Source of the DNA: Giardia intestinalis | Taxonomy: Eukaryota | Assembly (NCBI GenBank): GCA_000002435.2 | Contig: CM018792.1 | DNA length: 64,000 bases | Strand: one strand, 5' to 3' | In this document: positions 53,940-64,000 of the stretch, piece by piece | How the letters are laid out: each line of letters begins with the position of its first letter | Position numbering within the stretch: position 1 is the first letter of the stretch | Position numbers and translations under genes: made by a program | Notes under the pieces: model-generated | What the model saw: only the letters and a program-made list of their open reading frames with translations | Told to the model about the DNA's origin: nothing | Databases searched by the model: none

Positions 53940-55972
53940 GCCGCCGTTCTCTCGTTTCTCAGTAACACCAACCTTATTAGCAAAGTATTGACCTACTGAA
54001 AAATATCTAGCTTAATGCATAAAAAAGCGTTCACCAATAATCTAACTTTCCAACGAAGTATAGCTATATGTACTTACAGAACTCGGTAGATTTATAGACT
54101 AGAAGTGTGGTTCCTTCAGAAGCATGCCCTCTGTACGTATTGATACAATAGTAACGAGTAACCACGTTTCTCGTCAATACGTGCAGCACAGAAATCACTA
54201 GAGCTTATAGAGAGCAACAATCCAAGTACGAAGATGGATATCTCACAGTTATGCGCCTCAAAGTAATGTTGATTCACTTGTGATATCCGAGGAACACAGA
54301 GCATGTGAGCTAGGCACACAGCAGAGAAACTGGTCGCTTTACTAGCTAAGCTGTCCGAGCAGACGTGCCTGTTGCCCTGCAGAAGACAACTGCTGCACTG
54401 CTCAGGTGGAGCGAGCAGCTGAAAGGCCGGTAGATAAGTGTCCCTTATCGCACCGAGGCTGTGGTGCGTGAACGGGGCGAGTGTGCCAATCTTGCTCGGA
54501 TACATGCGCTGCGACAGTCGAAGACGAGAGTCTATGTCTCCACACATAAGGGAAGCAACAAGTGAGTGCTGCAGCGCGCCCGACTACCGGTGCAAGGGGG
54601 ACGATGAGGCACCTCTGGCTGCGTTAAGGATGACAGCGTACAGCAGCCCTAGCTCCCGAAGAAGGCCTTTGAGAGCAACCGAGACTCGGGGGCTGAACAA
54701 GGGGCAGCATGGTGCGAAGGGCTAACAATTTAACCCGGATTGACTCTAGTGCAACACAACGGTTCTCTCGGACCGCTCTTTGCAGCTTGGGATCCTGGGA
54801 AGCGAAGAGACCAGGAAGTCAGGTCATATCCTTACGACCGCAGGCACAACAGAGGACTGTGCAGGCACCCATTCGTCACACAGGGTAGTAAATCGTTAAG
54901 GGGGCTCAAGACAGTTGAATCCCACCAGATCTCTCAGCCGACAGCCAGAATGGCGGGTGTCCCCCTACGTTCCACCAGGCAGCGTCAAACATAGCAGAGG
55001 TCTGCCGGAAATGCACCAGATGCAGTCAACGCTTTTCTGGGTGTAGTGTTAACAGAATCACACACTACGATGCGCCTCAGACAGGCTCCACCTGGCAGCG
55101 GCGCCCCAGAGACGGGCCCCGAGGGACAAAGTATCTCCGGCCCTGTCCCTGCTCCAATGCGAGGGGCCTGTAGACAGAGCCGAGGATGGGGGCCAGTGCT
55201 CGGCCTCCTGCTGGTGCGGTGGCGCCGGGAGACCACCGGACCATCGACTCGGCCGCGGCAACCGGCGGAGCGCCCTGGGCTGCTGCTGTGTCCACACGCC
55301 TGGAGCGCGCCGCAGCAGCCCGGGATGGGTCCGCAGACAGGCGTGCCGCCCCAGCCGTCCCGGGGGCCGGCTCCTCGTGGCGGGCGGTCCTGCTCCCTTT
55401 GACTTTTCAAATGGAGAACGCAGTTATGGACCCTAGCTCTGCTGCAGAAGGTGCCTTATGAGACGCAGCACAATCACACCAAGCGGTATTGGGGCTGAGC
55501 ACTCCTTGGGACGGGCTCTTGGCGTATCTGAGAGACGCTCGTTGCTGTGCACTGCCTCTTGGGCCTTGGATGCACGTTGTGCAGAGCTGCAGGAGTCGCC
55601 CTTGCAGTTGTCGGTGGGCCGTTGATGGAGCCATTGAAAGCTCTGGACCGCTACTGGACCGTACTGTCCCAGTGCACGTGTGGCAGCTTTGATTCGCACT
55701 GGATGATCCGTACAGATTGCAACGGAGCCACGAGGTGCACTAGTATGACATACGCATTGAGACAGTCGCAGTTCTGTTCGGCTCAATCCACCTCCTTCTG
55801 GCCCTGTGCCGAGATTGCAGATTGCAGAGTAGTGTCAGCGATAGACCCGGTGAGTGTTGATTCCATCAGCGCCTGTGGTCAACGTGCGTCCGAAGGATCA
55901 ATCAACTGCATCAATCGACGCGGATTGACTGATGTACCGCGAGTATGTTCCTACCAATCTATCAATCGGGCA
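53940..55972. other. About 2-kb apparently non-coding region with a roughly 70%-GC core (about 55080-55420), between the helicase gene and the VSP gene
   Basis: Only short overlapping ORFs, on both strands and in several frames, with Pro/Arg/Ala-rich nonsense translations typical of GC-rich non-coding DNA. No AT-rich initiator context. This spacer is unusually long for this otherwise compact window. Confidence 0.4.
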
Positions 55973-58186
55973 ATGTTTGGCAGTTTTGTTCTCGCGGGGG
56001 TACTCGCTCAGATTGCATGGGCAGGAAAAGCAACAGAGCGCGCGGCTCACTGCGCAGATAACACTAATTGCGCAGCAGACGCATGCAACGTTCTGATCGG
56101 TGGTAAATTGTATTGCTCTCGATGTAACACAGGATTTGTTCCTATCAATGGACAATGTGCAGACAAAGAAGGTGCAACAGATAAGTGCAAAGATGGCTCC
56201 GGAGGCGATACAGCTGATCAGACCTGTGGACAGTGCGCCGAGCAGACTTTCATGTACAAGGGCGGCTGTTACGAAGCAGCCCAGCAGCCCGGACAGACCA
56301 TGTGTCAGGCGGCAGATGCTGGAGTATGCACACAAGCCGCGCAAGGATACTTCGTGCCGCCGGGCGCAGACGCCTCTCACCAGTCGGTCATACCATGTGG
56401 AGACGAAGAGGAAATAACAGTTAAAAACGATAAAAAGTACAAGGGCGTGCTGCACTGCACTCGGTGTAACGCTCCCACAGAAGCAGCAGATGCTAACGCC
56501 AAGGCCGCCACGTGTACTGCGTGCGGCGATAGCAAGATCGTCAAGACAGCCAAGGACTCAGCCACCTCCTGCGTGACAGAAGAAGAGTGCACCGGCACCG
56601 AAGGGTTCTTCGTGAAAAATGGCGGCACCAAAACCTGTGAGGCGTGTGATCCTGGTTGCAAGACCTGTAAGACCGAGGCTGCGAAGTGCACCTCCTGTAA
56701 GGACGACAAGCCGTACCTGAAGAAGGATAATGGCAGCGACACTGGCACGTGCGTCACCGAAGCTGAGTGCAAGACTGGAAACACCCACTACCCCGACGAC
56801 ACTGAGCCGAAGACGTGCAAGACGTGCGCCGAGGGGACCTCCGACGGGTGTGCGACGTGCGAGAAGGGCGCCGATGGAGCAGTCGCCTGCAAGACGTGCG
56901 GGTCTAATAAGAAGGTCCAGCCAAACAAGAAGGGGTGCATAGCAAAGTGCCCGGAGACGGTGAGTGCCGAGAAGGATGGCGTTTGTGAGTGCGTCGAGGG
57001 CTACGTTCCCGACAACGCGGGCACCGGGTGCACGAAGAAGCCCGACCCCCAGTGCAACACCCCCGGCTGCAAGACGTGCAGTGAGCCGAAGACAAGCAAG
57101 GAGGTGTGCACAGAGTGCGAAGACCCCAAGGCCCTCACGCCCACGGGCCAGTGCATCTACGGTTGTGAGCACCTGGAAGGCTACTACGAGGGCACCAGCG
57201 AGGGGGGCAAGAAGGCCTGCAAGAAGTGCGAGGTCGAGAACTGCCTCCTGTGCAACGGGCAAGGACAGTGCGAGACCTGCAAGGACGGGTACTACAAGAG
57301 CGGAGCCGCCTGTGCCAAGTGCAATACCTCGTGCAAGACGTGCGCGAACGGGAACTCCAACGGGTGCACGAGCTGCGAGCCTAAGCAGGTCCTCAGCTAC
57401 GAAGGAGAGGGCACGGGGACGTGCAAGCCAGGCTGCAAGCCAGTGAGCGGCGGCAAGGATGGAACGTGCAAGAGCTGCGACCTGAACATAGACGGGACAA
57501 GCTACTGTTCTGCCTGTAACGTGGGCACGGAGTATCCAGAGAACGGCGTGTGCGTCAAGAAGTCGGCCCGCACAGCCTCCTGCCAGGCAGAACCGAGCAA
57601 TGGTGTGTGCGGGACATGTGCAAGGGGCTTCTTCCGCATGAACGGGGGCTGCTACGAAACGACCAAACTCCCTGGAAAGAGCGTCTGTGAGGAGGTAGCA
57701 TCGGCCGGCGATACCTGTCAGACTCCGGCCGACGGATACAAGCTGAATAATGGCGCGCTCATCACTTGCTCGGCCGGATGTAAGACGTGCACCAGCCAGG
57801 ACCAGTGCGACACGTGTAAGGCTGGATATGCTAAGGATAGTGGTAACACTAAGAAGTGTGTTCCCTGCGCCACTGGGTGCTCCGAGTGCAATGCGGACGA
57901 CGCCACCAAGTGCACGGTGTGCGCTGCAGGGTACTACCTGTCCAAAGAAAAGTGTATAGCATGCGACAAGAGCGACGGGGGATCCATCACCGGCGTCGCC
58001 AACTGCGCTAGCTGTACTCCCCCAACCAACAATAAAGGGTCTGTCCTCTGCTACCTCATACAGAACACCAACAAGAGCGGTCTCAGCGCGGGCGCTATCG
58101 CGGGGATCTCCGTGGCTGTCATCGTCGTTGTGGCTGGTCTCGTAGGGTTCCTCTGCTGGTGGTTCATCTGCAGAGGCAAAGCGTAG
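55973..58186 (+). CDS. vsp: Variant-specific surface protein (VSP), 737 aa
   Basis: Signal peptide MFGSFVLAGVLAQIAWA. About 12% Cys with many CXXC motifs. GGCY motifs (MYKGGCYEAA, MNGGCYETT). A C-terminal TM segment AGAIAGISVAVIVVVAGLVGFLCWWFI is followed by the invariant CRGKA-stop. The track ORF extends 426 nt upstream in frame (from an ATG at 55547), but the signal peptide fixes the start at 55973. Confidence 0.9.
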   Translation: MFGSFVLAGVLAQIAWAGKATERAAHCADNTNCAADACNVLIGGKLYCSRCNTGFVPINGQCADKEGATDKCKDGSGGDTADQTCGQCAEQTFMYKGGCYEAAQQPGQTMCQAADAGVCTQAAQGYFVPPGADASHQSVIPCGDEEEITVKNDKKYKGVLHCTRCNAPTEAADANAKAATCTACGDSKIVKTAKDSATSCVTEEECTGTEGFFVKNGGTKTCEACDPGCKTCKTEAAKCTSCKDDKPYLKKDNGSDTGTCVTEAECKTGNTHYPDDTEPKTCKTCAEGTSDGCATCEKGADGAVACKTCGSNKKVQPNKKGCIAKCPETVSAEKDGVCECVEGYVPDNAGTGCTKKPDPQCNTPGCKTCSEPKTSKEVCTECEDPKALTPTGQCIYGCEHLEGYYEGTSEGGKKACKKCEVENCLLCNGQGQCETCKDGYYKSGAACAKCNTSCKTCANGNSNGCTSCEPKQVLSYEGEGTGTCKPGCKPVSGGKDGTCKSCDLNIDGTSYCSACNVGTEYPENGVCVKKSARTASCQAEPSNGVCGTCARGFFRMNGGCYETTKLPGKSVCEEVASAGDTCQTPADGYKLNNGALITCSAGCKTCTSQDQCDTCKAGYAKDSGNTKKCVPCATGCSECNADDATKCTVCAAGYYLSKEKCIACDKSDGGSITGVANCASCTPPTNNKGSVLCYLIQNTNKSGLSAGAIAGISVAVIVVVAGLVGFLCWWFICRGKA

Positions 58187-58192
58187 ATGTAC

Positions 58193-58207
58193 ACTTAGGT
58201 AGTAAAT
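58193..58207 (+). terminator. VSP-type extended polyadenylation signal ACTTAGGTAGTAAAT (contains AGTAAAT)
   Basis: It sits 7 nt after the VSP stop codon and matches the conserved VSP 3' element ACTYAGRTAGTRAAY as I remember it. Confidence 0.7.
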
Positions 58208-58446
58208 GCGTCGATGAATTCTGTTTGTAGGTCTGACTCGGAAGTTGCATGAATAACTCAATCTGGCTGTATTAGGAACAGGGACAAACCACAACTAATA
58301 GGTTAAAGATTTTCTTCTTCAGTTTTGAGCTCAATTCCAGGGTGGTCTCTGGATCTCTGAACTTGATACGCTGGCCCCCGGGTTTGACGACAGTACTACC
58401 TCCCGTCTCAAAAAGCATCACAAAGTGGTTTACAATCACCGATCAG

Positions 58447-60175: not shown

Positions 60176-61180
60176 ATGTTTCCGTTTATCCCAAAGGTTA
60201 CTGTGCTTGGATGCATATCTGGAAAGCCTACTGCAAATGGTGGAACATGTGGCATCCTGGTGGAATATTCCCCTAAGCACTACCTCATTTACGACTGTCC
60301 GGAAGGCACTTATGTCAAGCTCCTTCAGTACAACATTCTGCTGAGTTGCCTCCACTATGTTGTGATATCGCATATGCACCCCGATCATATGGCAGGGCTC
60401 CTAACCCTAATTTCTGGGCTCTCAGAGATATGTGGAGGCAGCCTTCCTTCGATCTACGGCCCCCAAGCTCTCGTCAAATATTTGGAGGTGGCTCTTCCAC
60501 TTACTGACCTTGCAGAAAGGTTTTCGCGTCCCCTAAAGCTTATTCCCATTGCTCCATTTCAGACGTTATCGAGCGTCATCACTGCAGATGGACCTTGGTC
60601 ATTTATTTTCTTTCCGCTTGCACACAGAATTGAGTGCCATGGATTGGCTATGGTGAGAGACACGTTTTCCGTGTTTGATACGAAGAAAGCTTTGGACTCA
60701 GGTGTTCCTCTGGACAAGCTTCCGGAGCTCAAGAAGACAACTGAGGGAATAAAGTTTTCTACGGTGTGTCCTCGTTTGAAGATTATCCTCTGCAGTGATA
60801 ACGACGCCAAGAGACTCCTTGCCGACCGTGCATACGGAGGCATCGACGGGGCTACGTTTCTTCAATTCATAGACCGGACTGATCTTCGAAACCCAGACCT
60901 TCTCCTCCATGAATTTACATTTACCAATTATCATCAGGAAAAGGCGTCGTTGTATGGACATAGTTGCACTACCGCAGTCGGGGATCTGTGCAATGAGTTA
61001 CGCCCAAAACGCGTTCTACTCAACCACTTCAGTGTTCGCTACAAAAGAACGGCCTGCTCAAATAGGTTTGGCGTAGCGCCCCCCAAAGAGTGCGTCCAGC
61101 TCACTGAGTGGCATAGACTTTTCGGCAAGGTTTATAGCACGGCCTATGCAACCGAGGATAAAGTATATCCCATCGAATGA
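60176..61180 (+). CDS. Ribonuclease Z (tRNA 3'-processing endonuclease, short ELAC1-like form; metallo-beta-lactamase fold)
   Basis: HxHxDH motif VISHMHPDHMAGL. The N-terminal ...LGCISGKPTANGGTCGILVEYSPKHYLIYDCPEGTYVKLLQ resembles the tRNase Z pattern LGtg...P...Rn.s...l....lfDcGEGtq.ql. The C-terminal LLNHFSVRYK matches the tRNase Z l.HfSqRY motif. Confidence 0.7.
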   Translation: MFPFIPKVTVLGCISGKPTANGGTCGILVEYSPKHYLIYDCPEGTYVKLLQYNILLSCLHYVVISHMHPDHMAGLLTLISGLSEICGGSLPSIYGPQALVKYLEVALPLTDLAERFSRPLKLIPIAPFQTLSSVITADGPWSFIFFPLAHRIECHGLAMVRDTFSVFDTKKALDSGVPLDKLPELKKTTEGIKFSTVCPRLKIILCSDNDAKRLLADRAYGGIDGATFLQFIDRTDLRNPDLLLHEFTFTNYHQEKASLYGHSCTTAVGDLCNELRPKRVLLNHFSVRYKRTACSNRFGVAPPKECVQLTEWHRLFGKVYSTAYATEDKVYPIE

Positions 61181-61336
61181 CATTCGTGGAGATTAAATGT
61201 TACTGGCTTAGCTTTAAGGCCTTCACAAAGATCACTAGTCAGTTGCGACCTGGGTATATTGGAGTTGCTAGAGTGGCTTAAAACTTGTGGTCAAAATTAA
61301 TTCCAACATTTTCGCCTCTTGTGGTTTAAATAGGCT

Positions 61337-64000
61337 AATGCTGATACTGTCATGGTTGTTGCCATGCCTCCTCACGGTATCTGTCAGCACAGAAATGGAG
61401 CTTAGGAAGGCCTTAAGCAACGGAAGAGACGTCACACTAAACGATGACATAACTCTCAAACTGCCGTGGATGCCTGTTCCTGCATATGGAAAAGTGTTCG
61501 ATGGCAAGGGTCACACTATCCGAAACATCTCAGTGAGCTCGACTGTCCCAGCCAGCCAGGGATCAGGGCTTTTTTCTGAATTGACTGGAGGAAGTATTTC
61601 CAATCTAAATTTGCAATTCAATACAACAATTGATAGTGGATTGATACTTTTTGGTGGCGTGTCAGCAAAGGCTTCGGACAAGGCCAGGGTTACAAACGTC
61701 AATGTCAGTGGAACGGTCTCGATTAAATCACACGCCGATGGAAACGTGACTGTTGGTTGTATCTTCGGAACAGCCGGAGACACTGGAACTCGAGAGCCTT
61801 CTGACGCAGTCCGATCAGACTGCATCGTCACTGTTAATGCTTCTAACGCGAATCTCAGGCTCGGCGGATTCATCGGAATTCTGGAGAACACTGCAGTGGC
61901 CATGCACTACACCGGGAAGCCGCGCGTAGGCTGTCATGCAAAGCGGTGCTACGTCGGAGGCTTCGCATCGATGGCAACAGGGCCTATTCAAGATGTCCAC
62001 TTTACAGATTCGGTTGTCAACGCCACTGCCCTTCGACACTCGATTGTGGGAGGTATTGTAGGCCATGGCAATAACATTCAGCTCTGCAGCTCATACAACT
62101 CGACCATCAGTGTCACCTCTACTGGCCGTGTCCTTGCTGGTGTGTCTGTCGGAGGGGCAGTCGGCGAAACTAATGCCGAAAACTATGTGATCAACACGAC
62201 ATTTGTTAAGGCATCAATGATTGTTCTGGAGACACGCTCCTCATCCTATCTCGGGGGTGTTCTGGGATATGGCAAGCATAGGGGTGGAACCATGACGAAT
62301 AGCTACGCTGTTGTTCAATCGCTGCGAGGGTATAATAATGGTGGCCATATGTACGGTGGAGGATTTCTGGGCTACGGTAATGCGTCTTCTCTTACCCTTT
62401 CTACGTGTTACATGTTCGTTCCAGAGTTTCAATTCTTCGAGAAGCCCGGGGCCGGTGGGCAGTCATATTACGGGGGATTCTTTGGACTTATCAACGGGTC
62501 ATCGTCAGACACACCATCAGTTCACAGCATTCAGGCTGGGATGGGCAAGTTTGAGGTACGGATGGTTGCGCAGGGGACCAACGCTGGAAACTTCGGAGGC
62601 GCGATAGAAGCAGCTCGTGAAACGCTTATTGAGCGCATAGTGCTTATGGGAGCCGCAGGTATCTGGTCTGGCGAAGCTCCGGAAAATGCAGCGATCTTCA
62701 TCGGCAAGGTTGGTCCAGGGATAAACCTTAAAACAATCTTGGTCAATATTTCCATCGGTAACGGAAACAATCTACCCAATACCGCAAACTTTGTCAACAC
62801 ATTCACTGGTACAGCGACAGACATTGTCTACAATTCTGGCATTGTAAAGACGTCGCAATTTATGCCTGCCTCAGGGACATATCAGAACTTTAATATACGT
62901 GTCAATACAACCACTCAAGTCTCCTGCGAAAACTACCTCCAAAAACACGGACTCGACAGCAGCAAAGTTAATTGTGCGGATGACTTATATCTAAATAAAA
63001 CCACTTCAAGCGCTCAGATCAATACCGATTGGAAGTTTGAAACTGTCGACAACTGGGAACATGATCCAAAGGGATGGTACTTGCCCAAGGGAATGCCGGT
63101 CGCCAACTCAGCAATTAACAACCCGGCCCTCTTTATGACTATATACCTTGATGCTAAGGGGAAAACAGGCCTTTCATGGCAGAACAGTGGATGGGATAAT
63201 GAAACTATATGGCGCTTTGGAAACACTAATGAAGCCGATACTACGAAGGCAATCCCACCCTCTTTTCCTGCCCTTTGGAAGAATCCCGAATCGTTCCTAG
63301 CGTGCACCCCTCAAAGCTGTGGGCGTGAAAGCTTCTTTAGCCCATTCATGTGCAATTGTCTGCACGGCTGTCCTGACCTAAAGAACGGACAGTGCAGTTC
63401 ATACAATGGCGCGACGTGTGACGAGGGCTGGAAAAATGTTGGGACTTCTTTATGTTCTGGTTTCAGTTGCGCAGGTAAGGATCAGCTGTGCGGAGGTAGT
63501 CAGGTAGCTGAGTGTGATGCTGGCAGCAGCCTGTGCAAGTGCAAGGAGCATGAAAAATACTACAACATCTCCACAAAGACCTGCGAAATGGGATGCCAAG
63601 GCATTGGCCACGGGTTTTGCACAGGCCCTGGTGTGGCAATGTGTGACAAAGGGTGGAAAGATGGTGAAGCCGGTCTTTGCACCGTGTACAGTTGTTCTTC
63701 AGATGATCCCACAACGGCATGTGGGGGCTCCTCAGTTGCTAAATGTATTACTGCATACGATGTTTGTAATTGCACAGTTCAGACCTCAGCCTATAATCCT
63801 GAGAATAAGCAATGTGAGCCTAATAAGTGTACTATAGCTAGCGGGGATCACATTTGCATCGGAGAAAACAAGGCCATTTGCATGTCCAATACTTGGCCAA
63901 CCAGTGGAACGTCTGGCGAAACACTCTGCGCACACTATGACTGTATGAGGCACCAGCAGTGTGCCGCTGGAAGTGTTTGTGATATTGATACGTTTGCTTG
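61337..64000 (+). CDS. Secreted or membrane cysteine-rich protein. Partial: it runs off the window end. It has a signal peptide, Gly-rich GLUG-like beta-helix repeats, and EGF/tenascin-like Cys repeats.
   Basis: Hand translation from the ATG at 61337 stays open to 64000. Signal peptide MLILSWLLPCLLTVSVS. There are repeated ..GG[FIV][IVL]G.. units (RLGGFIGIL, VGGFASMA, VGGIVGHG, AGVSVGGAVG, LGGVLGYG, GGGFLGYG, YGGFFGLI). From about nt 63300 onward the Cys spacing is EGF-like (CDEGWKNVGTSLCSGFSC, CEMGCQGIGHGFCTGPGVAMCDKGWKDGEAGLC). It is not in the ORF track because it has no stop in the window. Confidence 0.6.

What the first reader, a model, noticed from the sequence alone, without database searches (positions are those of the whole stretch)
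61337..64000. Signal-peptide protein combining GLUG-like glycine repeats with EGF-like cysteine repeats, missing from the ORF track
A cleavable signal peptide is followed by about 600 aa with at least seven repeated GG(F/I/V)(I/L/V)G-containing units, spaced 25-45 aa apart. That pattern resembles GLUG/beta-helical adhesin repeats, which are better known from bacterial surface proteins. The protein then switches to tightly spaced Cys patterns typical of EGF/tenascin-like modules and of Giardia high-cysteine membrane proteins. It lacks the VSP CRGKA logic, at least within the window. This combination of modules in one surface protein looks unusual and could be a distinct surface or adhesion family.
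Basis: partly seen in the sequence, partly recalled or inferred. Interest (0 to 1): 0.5.

Follow-up and report, generated by a model that had tools for sequence, protein, structure and literature searches.

The report
Giardia CXC-rich GLUG surface protein gene

Summary
The ORF is real. It starts at ATG 61338 on the + strand and is still open at base 64000. That is the only reason it is absent from the ORF list.

**Identity**
- The window is Giardia intestinalis.
- The ORF is 80% identical to the 1806-aa assemblage B "CXC-rich/GLUG motif protein" (KWX15737.1, EES99494.1) and lies in the same gene order. It is 33% identical to a G. muris "CXC-rich protein".
- It is most probably GL50803_14225 (1805 aa) or its equivalent in a close isolate.

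**GLUG call: upheld**
- Pfam Glug itself is below threshold (13.8 bits against a 20.5-bit cut-off).
- The domain matches bacterial proteins that do pass Glug: phmmer E down to 6e-36, and hhalign probability 99.5%.

**EGF call: weaker**
- No Pfam EGF family matches.
- A confident model (pLDDT 80) resembles Delta/Jagged EGF arrays only weakly.

**Full-length orthologues**
- They add a second GLUG beta-helix, a VSP-like transmembrane helix and a tail that is not CRGKA.

**Likely role (inferred)**
- A non-variant, sheddable binding or adhesion protein.
- Novelty is low: the gene is known but has not been studied functionally.

The parts
61278..61337 (+). Short AT-rich upstream region, a putative Giardia initiator/promoter, in the 157-bp gap after the preceding gene (which ends at 61180)
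   Evidence: Read directly from the sequence: TTAAAAC at 61278-61284, CAAAATTAATTCC at 61292-61304, GTTTAAATAGG at 61324-61334. Promoter function is inferred from general knowledge of Giardia promoters and was not tested.
61338..64000 (+). 5' part (887 codons plus 2 bases) of the CXC-rich/GLUG motif protein gene. It is cut by the window end, and about 918 codons are missing.
   Evidence: The frame is open with no stop. It is 80% identical over 876 aa to the 1806-aa assemblage B protein and 33% identical to the G. muris protein. Gene order and 78.5% nucleotide identity are shared with the assemblage B locus.
61338..61391 (+). Signal peptide (aa 1-18, MLILSWLLPCLLTVSVST). The exact cleavage site was not determined.
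   Evidence: Hydrophobic core read. AF2 models residues 2-11 as a helix. SignalP 0.997 and a TargetP secretory call are reported for GL50803_14225 in the PMC3044749 supplement.
61392..62867 (+). GLUG-type right-handed parallel beta-helix domain 1 (aa 19-510). It opens with an N-terminal cap (ELRKAL...DITL...FDGKGHTIRNISV...GLFSEL...ISNLNL) followed by about 11 coils with GG-hydrophobic motifs.
62868..63302 (+). Tryptophan-rich linker or C-terminal cap region (aa 511-655), with two W...W...P.L-type motifs (TDWKFETVDNWEHDPKGWYLPKGMP and LSWQNSGWDNETIWRF...PPSFPALW)
   Evidence: Read. The same F...W...P.L pattern appears in the consensus of the alignment with bacterial GLUG proteins. The AF2 confidence is low here (pLDDT 28-52), so the structure is undetermined.
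63303..63998 (+). Cysteine-rich CxC-type EGF-like repeat region (aa 656-887), with about three 77-aa units of 10 Cys. It continues beyond the window.
   Evidence: Cys positions. Repeat units and conserved Cys framework across Giardia B, G. muris and two unidentified eukaryotic proteins. AF2 mean pLDDT 80.3. Foldseek's top hits are EGF arrays of Delta-like 1, Jagged-1/2, integrin beta and NELL2, with E 2e-3 to 0.1. No Pfam EGF or VSP hit at E <= 10.

Best explanation
The region holds the 5' 887 codons of a conserved, single-copy Giardia gene. Public annotation calls it 'CXC-rich protein' or 'CXC-rich/GLUG motif protein'. It is most probably GL50803_14225 or its equivalent in a close isolate.

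Shown: the complete protein, as seen in orthologues, is a type I membrane protein of about 1805 aa. In order it has:
- a signal peptide;
- a first right-handed beta-helix built of GLUG-type coils;
- a Trp-rich linker;
- a rod of four to five CxC-type EGF-like double modules;
- a second GLUG beta-helix;
- a short CxxC segment;
- a VSP-like transmembrane helix;
- a 27-aa (assemblage B) to 34-aa (G. muris) cytoplasmic tail that is not CRGKA.

Inferred: the two beta-helices are non-catalytic binding surfaces held away from the membrane by the disulfide-bonded stalk. They would serve in adhesion or ligand capture (glycans, mucus, or host or microbial proteins) at the trophozoite surface. The ectodomain could be shed. 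The protein does not take part in antigenic variation. The beta-helix module is of a bacterial type and was probably acquired anciently, before the split of G. muris and G. intestinalis.
For: Gene identity:
- 80% aa identity to KWX15737.1/EES99494.1.
- Same gene order in assemblage B: RNase PH, DEAD_2 helicase, pyruvate kinase, Lactamase_B_2, then this gene. Nucleotide identity is 78.5% over 5.6 kb.
- GL50803_14225 is 1805 aa. That fits the 1806-aa orthologue with the one-residue gap seen in the alignment.
- A VSP-like TMD is described for GL50803_14225 and is seen in the orthologue.

Architecture:
- Orthologue sequences.
- A second domain hit at aa 1040-1300.
- One hydrophobic segment at aa 1744-1780.

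GLUG beta-helix:
-.

No protease:
- No HExxH motif.

Expression and surface or secreted behaviour:
- GL50803_14225 peptides were found in membrane fractions.
- The paralogue GL50803_17476 (2169 aa) has peptides with the same FxGxLDGxxHxI domain-start motif. It is among the top proteins released by WB trophozoites.

Non-variant status:
- Positional orthologue in assemblage B, a sequence orthologue in G. muris (different gene neighbourhood there), 4.9% Cys, and no CRGKA.
Against: - No experiment bears on what the beta-helices bind. The function is inferred from fold and from bacterial analogues.
- Pfam Glug and Peptidase_M26_N are both below their curated cut-offs on this sequence.
- AF2 confidence is low for aa 185-232 and from about aa 410 onward in the N-terminal model.
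- The same fold is used by many polysaccharide lyases and hydrolases, so a catalytic role is not excluded.
- The identification as GL50803_14225 is indirect, resting on length, described features and orthology. No WB sequence was available to compare.
- A Naegleria hit reported in 2011 and two homologues from an unidentified eukaryote make the direction and timing of any gene transfer uncertain.
Confidence: 0.8

Rival explanations
1. The beta-helix domains are enzymes (a polysaccharide lyase, a glycosidase or an epimerase of the pectin-lyase fold) that act on mucus or microbial glycans, rather than passive binding modules.
Against: The best sequence and structure matches are the GLUG family and the non-catalytic gating beta-helix (NTD2) of IgA1 metalloproteases. 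No glycoside hydrolase or lyase family reaches significance. Pfam describes Pectate_lyase_5 as a putative adhesive domain. No conserved acidic or basic catalytic cluster was identified, though this was not searched systematically.
Confidence: 0.12
2. It is just another member of the VSP/HCMP/tenascin-like cysteine-rich superfamily, and the glycine repeats have no separate meaning.
For: The literature groups the CXC-rich proteins with the HCMP superfamily and the CRMP class. The orthologues carry a VSP-like TMD and a short CxxC segment near the membrane. A true VSP lies 3 kb upstream in the window.
Against: Pfam VSP does not hit this protein, while it hits the neighbouring gene at E 4e-139. Cys content is 4.9% against a median near 11.5% for CRMPs. 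More than 1000 of the roughly 1805 residues are Cys-poor beta-helix with significant bacterial GLUG homology. The window's Cys region finds no match in the neighbouring VSP, neither by phmmer at E <= 10 nor by tblastn at E <= 1e-3.
Confidence: 0.05
3. The ORF is a chance open frame or a pseudogene fragment at the window edge.
For: It is absent from the ORF list. One database fragment (P0004) carries a frameshift in this gene.
Against: It runs 887 codons without a stop, while the other forward frames are full of stops. It is conserved at the protein level in assemblage B and in G. muris, where the reading frame is full length. Peptides of GL50803_14225 have been detected. The ORF list omits edge-running ORFs by design.
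Confidence: 0.01

Closest known systems
Giardia 'CXC-rich protein' GL50803_14225 and its orthologues: KWX15737.1 'CXC-rich/ GLUG motif protein', EES99494.1, ESU45626.1 'Putative GLUG motif protein', and G. muris TNJ26234.1
   Same: 80% identity and the same gene order in assemblage B, and 33% identity across the full window ORF in G. muris. The domain order is the same. The length fits (1805/1806 aa). The signal peptide and VSP-like TMD match published descriptions.
   Different: Nothing of substance. The window holds only the first 887 of about 1805 codons. Assignment to the WB gene ID is inferred, not verified by direct sequence comparison.
Giardia CXC-rich protein GL50803_17476 (2169 aa), a paralogue
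   Same: It has the same annotation, a signal peptide and one TM. Its peptides carry the beta-helix start motif (SYEWEGVDFSGTLDGNNHAISGINLR) and the W...YP.L cap motif.
   Different: It has a different length and lies at a different locus (GLCHR04:204969-211478). Its published peptides are absent from the window ORF (checked by eye) and from the orthologues and other retrieved hits. Its abundant release by WB trophozoites is documented for 17476, not for this gene.
Bacterial GLUG-motif surface proteins (Pfam PF07581), for example the 3444-aa Bacillota MAG protein MFH2117318.1
   Same: The N-terminal cap and GG-hydrophobic coil repeat are shared. phmmer E is 6e-36 for the best hit, and hhalign probability is 99.5% against a 12-protein bacterial alignment. 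16 of the 26 members of alignment A1 (3 of them Giardia sequences) pass Pfam Glug.
   Different: The Giardia coils are too diverged to pass the Pfam Glug cut-off. The bacterial proteins combine the helix with SLH, Big_2, Flg_new or fn3 domains. They do not combine it with EGF-like Cys repeats or a eukaryotic type I membrane anchor.
M26 IgA1 metalloproteases of Streptococcus pneumoniae and Gemella haemolysans (beta-helix domain NTD2)
   Different: The Giardia protein has no HExxH motif, no middle domain and no C-terminal catalytic domain. It is not a protease of this family.
Giardia tenascin-like proteins and animal EGF arrays (Delta, Jagged, Notch)
   Same: CxC-dominated cysteine spacing, C-x2-GW-x-G...C motifs, a predicted rod of small disulfide-bonded beta-hairpin modules, and weak Foldseek matches to Delta-like 1 and Jagged-1 EGFs.
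   Different: No Pfam EGF family matches. The repeat is a 77-aa, 10-Cys double unit. Giardia tenascin-like proteins are mostly secreted without a TMD, whereas this protein is membrane-anchored in its orthologues.

Membership tests
Giardia CXC-rich/GLUG motif protein orthologous group (GL50803_14225) | High sequence identity over the full available length to named members | tested here: met
   80% identity over 876 aa to KWX15737.1. 33% identity over 934 aligned columns to G. muris TNJ26234.1.
Giardia CXC-rich/GLUG motif protein orthologous group (GL50803_14225) | Same chromosomal neighbourhood | tested here: met
   RNase_PH, DEAD_2 helicase, pyruvate kinase and Lactamase_B_2 precede the gene both in the window and in assemblage B contig JXTI01000003.1. 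The regions are collinear by blastn at 78.5%.
Giardia CXC-rich/GLUG motif protein orthologous group (GL50803_14225) | Second GLUG domain, VSP-like TMD and non-CRGKA tail at the C-terminus | not testable with these tools
   The window ends at codon 887. These features are seen only in the orthologues.
GLUG motif family (Pfam PF07581) | Score at or above the Pfam gathering cut-off (20.5 bits) | tested here: not met
   No hit on the whole protein. On sub-segments the scores are 13.8 bits (E 0.083) and 11.7 bits (E 0.39).
GLUG motif family (Pfam PF07581) | Significant homology to proteins that pass the Glug cut-off | tested here: met
   phmmer against 1.84 billion representatives gave 109 hits. 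The nearest non-Giardia hit scores E 5.9e-36 and itself scores Glug E 7.6e-31. 16 of the 26 members of alignment A1 pass Glug, and 3 of those 26 are Giardia sequences. hhalign probability is 99.5%, E 1.7e-22.
GLUG motif family (Pfam PF07581) | Right-handed parallel beta-helix fold as in solved GLUG-containing proteins (3n6z, IgA1 protease NTD2) | tested here: met
M26 IgA1-specific metalloprotease | HExxH zinc site and Peptidase_M26 catalytic domains | tested here: not met
   There is no HExxH in the window ORF or the orthologues. Peptidase_M26_N scores 12.8 bits against a 27.7-bit cut-off, and no M26_C hit was found.
Giardia VSP | Pfam VSP match, frequent CxxC motifs, and a C-terminal CRGKA | tested here: not met
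   No Pfam VSP hit. The window part has 0 CxxC. The orthologues end in ...CRRKDSLAEKSV...SMV without CRGKA. The TMD alone is VSP-like.
Giardia HCMP (high cysteine membrane protein) | About 10% or more cysteine, with many CxxC motifs and a C-terminal TMD (definition from my own knowledge and from the ranges given) | tested here: not met
   The orthologue has 4.87% Cys and 6 CxxC. A TMD is present. It sits at the extreme low end of the CRMP class of preprint 10.1101/2022.03.07.483299, whose range starts at 4.93%.
EGF-like domain families (Pfam EGF clan) | A profile match to any EGF family | tested here: not met
   No family at E <= 10 for aa 650-887 or for a single 79-aa repeat. No PDB sequence match at E <= 10.
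EGF-like domain families (Pfam EGF clan) | EGF-type fold and cysteine spacing | tested here: inconclusive
   The spacing C-x8-C-x7-C-x6-C-x-C-x13-C and the C-x2-GW-x-G motifs are read from the sequence. The AF2 model has pLDDT 80.3. The Foldseek top 20 are nearly all EGF arrays, but with E 2e-3 to 0.1, probability at most 0.57, and TM below 0.3.
Giardia tenascin-like/secreted Cys-rich proteins (SCRP) | Signal peptide, majority CxC motifs, and no TMD | tested here: not met
   The signal peptide and CxC majority are present, but the orthologues have a TMD. GL50803_14225 is classed as CRMP, not SCRP.

The most novel reading that the evidence does not exclude
The two GLUG beta-helices are bacterial-origin modules that Giardia's ancestors captured and mounted on a eukaryotic EGF-like stalk. 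Their closest solved relatives are the beta-helix gating domains of IgA1 proteases. On that basis they might work as non-catalytic binders of a mucosal host ligand, such as secretory IgA or mucin glycans. That would give Giardia a conserved, non-variant immune-evasion or attachment factor.
Probability: 0.07. Interest if true: 0.7.

Novelty: already known. Interest (0 to 1): 0.25.

Why it matters
As a discovery it adds little.

What is still open is biology:
- No paper in the searched library mentions both Giardia and the GLUG motif.
- The protein is conserved from G. muris to human-infective assemblages.
- It is expressed, and its paralogue is one of the most abundant proteins released by trophozoites.
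- Over 1000 of its residues form bacterial-type beta-helices of unknown ligand.

A conserved, non-variant surface protein is a more attractive vaccine or diagnostic target than a VSP. Its origin (gene transfer or ancient protist inheritance) can be tested now that related proteins have turned up in other eukaryotes.

Tried and rejected
- **Word-indexed protein search.** The whole ORF and aa 1-641 each returned nothing at E <= 1e-3 and 1e-2. The 80%-identical orthologue is in the collection, so that tool does not reach Giardia proteins. These negatives say nothing about novelty.
- **NCBIfam.** No family, as expected for a eukaryotic protein.
- **PDB sequence searches.** No match at E <= 10 for either the N-terminal region or the Cys region.
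- **Pfam on sub-segments.** This raised Glug, Peptidase_M26_N and Pectate_lyase_5 only to sub-threshold scores.
- **Paralogues in the window.** tblastn found none. The Cys region does not match the neighbouring VSP.
- **Literature search for 'GLUG'.** It mostly returned Glugea and unrelated abbreviations.
- **Is the window gene GL50803_17476?** Rejected. Its length is 2169 aa, it lies at a different locus, and its peptides are absent from the window ORF (by eye) and from the retrieved proteins.
- **Is the gene downstream of the G. muris orthologue a tandem paralogue?** It is not: 1.7% Cys and no blastp match.
- **Protease reading.** Rejected for lack of an HExxH motif.
Full report
**1. What is in the sequence**

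- Translating from base 61338 on the + strand gives 887 codons with no stop up to the window end. The other two forward frames are broken by many stops.
- The ORF is preceded by a 157-bp gap after the previous gene. Short AT-rich elements lie within 60 bp of the ATG, as is usual for Giardia genes (my knowledge).
- The ORF is missing from the mechanical ORF list only because that tool omits ORFs that run off the source.
- The window is Giardia. The neighbouring ORF at 55547-58186 matches Pfam VSP at E 4e-139, and the window is packed with long intron-free genes.

**2.

- The N-terminus MLILSWLLPCLLTVSVS has a hydrophobic core of about 15 residues.
- GG-hydrophobic-hydrophobic-small motifs occur at aa 106, 176, 207, 238, 272, 306, 341, 379 and 420. 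From 176 onward they are 31-41 aa apart.
- The strict pattern GG[FIV][ILV]G occurs 4 times in aa 1-640. In 5000 shuffles the mean was 0.04 and the maximum was 2.
- Cysteines are sparse up to aa 546: nine in all, counting one in the signal peptide. None occurs between 547 and 655. From aa 656 there are 31 Cys in 232 residues, arranged in a roughly 77-aa unit with 10 Cys, three CxC and no CxxC.

**3. Identity of the gene**

- The word-indexed homologue search found nothing. The exhaustive HMMER search with aa 1-700 found 109 proteins.
- The best hit, P0001 (1806 aa), is 80% identical over 876 aa. GenBank names it 'CXC-rich/ GLUG motif protein' (assemblage B, KWX15737.1). Cluster mates are named 'CXC-rich protein' (GS, EES99494.1) and 'Putative GLUG motif protein' (ESU45626.1).
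- The second hit is the G. muris 'CXC-rich protein' TNJ26234.1, at 33% identity across the whole ORF.
- The assemblage B gene has the same neighbours: RNase PH, DEAD_2 helicase, pyruvate kinase and Lactamase_B_2. The two loci are collinear at 78.5% nucleotide identity. The genes are therefore positional orthologues.
- WB has two 'CXC-rich proteins':
  - GL50803_17476 is 2169 aa and lies at another locus. Its published peptides are not in this ORF (by eye) nor in the retrieved proteins.
  - GL50803_14225 is 1805 aa, with SignalP 0.997. It is described as having a signal peptide, a single VSP-like TMD and a non-CRGKA tail.
- The orthologue is 1806 aa, and the window copy has a one-residue deletion relative to it. 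I therefore infer that the window gene is GL50803_14225 or its equivalent in a closely related isolate. This was not checked against a WB sequence.

**4. Full architecture, from the orthologues**

| Segment | Position in the assemblage B orthologue |
|---|---|
| Signal peptide | N-terminus |
| GLUG beta-helix 1 | about aa 19-510 |
| Trp-rich linker | to aa 655 |
| Four to five CxC-type EGF-like double modules | to about aa 1010 |
| GLUG beta-helix 2 (eleven further GG motifs) | about aa 1040-1640 |
| Short CxxC segment | before the TM |
| Hydrophobic TM segment (AAIAGISITVILVVAGVAGFLCWWF) | aa 1744-1780 |
| Cytoplasmic tail RRKDSLAEK...SMV | C-terminus |

- There is no CRGKA and no HExxH motif. 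Cysteine content is 4.87%.
- The window contains only the first three segments and about three of the EGF-like units.

**5. Is the glycine repeat a GLUG beta-helix?**

Direct Pfam membership fails:
- The whole protein gives only a weak Peptidase_M26_N hit (E 0.068).
- Sub-segments give Glug at 13.8 and 11.7 bits against a 20.5-bit cut-off. Peptidase_M26_N and Pectate_lyase_5 are also sub-threshold.

Homology to the family is nevertheless strong:
- The nearest non-Giardia hit is a 3444-aa Bacillota MAG protein. Its whole-library E-value is 5.9e-36, and it scores Glug at E 7.6e-31 itself.
- 16 of the 26 members of alignment A1 (3 of them Giardia sequences) pass Glug. Several also carry typical bacterial wall or surface domains such as SLH, Big_2 and Flg_new.
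- hhalign of aa 19-510 against an alignment of 12 bacterial members gives probability 99.5% and E 1.7e-22. It aligns the characteristic start motif (L..DIDL...W.PI..F.G.FDG.GHTI) and the first coils.

The predicted structure agrees:
- AlphaFold2 with a 26-sequence alignment gives an all-beta model. Confidence is high for aa 10-180 and moderate for aa 230-410. It is low for aa 185-232 and from about aa 410 onward.
- Foldseek's top five are the same IgA1-protease entries.
- In those enzymes the beta-helix (NTD2) is a non-catalytic gate over the active site (PMC9637739).

**6. Is the cysteine region EGF-like?**

- No Pfam EGF or VSP model matches even at E <= 10. No PDB sequence matches. The neighbouring VSP does not match either.
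- The spacing C-x8-C-x7-C-x6-C-x-C-x13-C and the C-x2-GW-x-G...C motifs are EGF-like.
- A five-sequence alignment shows an invariant cysteine framework. The AF2 model is confident (pLDDT 80.3).
- Foldseek's best matches are almost all EGF arrays: Delta-like 1, Jagged-1/2, integrin I-EGF, NELL2 and Notch. They are weak, with E 2e-3 to 0.1 and probability at most 0.57.
- I call this an EGF-like rod at the level of fold and spacing, not a demonstrated member of an EGF family.

**7. Function**

Nothing has been tested for this protein beyond its detection by mass spectrometry.

Shown:
- it has a secretory signal;
- it has a single C-terminal TM in the orthologues;
- it has two beta-helices and a disulfide-rich stalk;
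- it is conserved across Giardia species;
- it lacks the hallmarks of variant proteins.

The paralogue GL50803_17476 is among the most abundant proteins released by WB trophozoites, so shedding is plausible for this family.

Inferred: the beta-helices are binding modules for adhesion or ligand capture, presented on an EGF-like stalk. An enzymatic role (lyase or hydrolase of the same fold) is the main rival, which I put at about 0.12.

**8. Origin**

- Nearly all of the 109 homologues look bacterial.
- Two Cys-rich proteins, P0008 and P0089, come from sequencing run SRR14944320. They share the GLUG to W-linker to 'C.C.EGCP.L..G.C' order.
- P0089's contig also encodes a eukaryote-type aspartyl-tRNA synthetase (my reading of the sequence). 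GC is 0.64 for that contig and 0.55 for P0008's.
- A 2011 table lists a Naegleria gruberi protein as the best outside hit of GL50803_14225.
- The module combination is therefore older than Giardia and not unique to it. Whether the beta-helix came by gene transfer from bacteria is plausible but untested.

**9. Verdict**

- Novelty: already known.
- Interest is low to moderate. It rests on the lack of any functional study of a conserved, non-variant, partly bacterial-like surface protein. No paper in the library pairs Giardia with the GLUG motif.

Noticed in passing
window 53940-58446 (VSP ORF at 55547-58186, + strand): A complete VSP gene (Pfam VSP E 4e-139) sits in a GC-rich block (GC 0.56-0.59) between the DEAD_2 helicase and pyruvate kinase genes. 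The syntenic assemblage B locus (L003) has only about 760 bp there, and blastn finds no counterpart. This is therefore a lineage-specific VSP insertion or deletion at a conserved locus.
   Followed up: partly
window 56558-58294 (- strand): A 578-aa ORF lies antisense to the VSP gene and almost wholly inside it. It is probably a spurious open frame favoured by the GC-rich, repetitive VSP sequence.
   Followed up: no
L001 1888-8616 and L002 463-8991 (Logan run SRR14944320): Two large Cys-rich proteins, P0008 (2242 aa, 8.1% Cys) and P0089 (2842 aa, 9.7% Cys), share the GLUG beta-helix, Trp-rich linker and 'C.C.EGCP.L..G.C' EGF-like order. They continue into long CxxC arrays. P0089 has a TM and a long tail. 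One contig also carries a eukaryote-type AspRS. GC is 0.55 and 0.64. The organism is not identified.
   Followed up: partly
window 62292-62520 (aa 319-394 of the ORF): Database fragment P0004 (104 aa) is identical to the window protein for 61 residues and then continues in the window's third forward frame. This indicates a frameshifted assembly of the same assemblage elsewhere, not a real variant.
   Followed up: partly
L003 13468-21421 (assemblage B, downstream of the orthologue, - strand): A gene for a protein of 6995 residues with no Pfam hit converges on the 3' end of the CXC-rich/GLUG gene in assemblage B. The same giant gene probably lies just beyond the window's right edge.
   Followed up: no
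tool behaviour: the search for homologous proteins returned no hit for this ORF, although its 80%-identical orthologue is a cluster representative in the same collection. Negatives from that tool should not be read as absence for Giardia queries.
   Followed up: yes
window 60176-61180 (+ strand): The small gene just upstream is a metallo-beta-lactamase-fold protein (Lactamase_B_2, E 3.5e-8). Its assemblage B orthologue also carries a weak precomputed hit to Anti-Pycsar_Apyc1.
   Followed up: no
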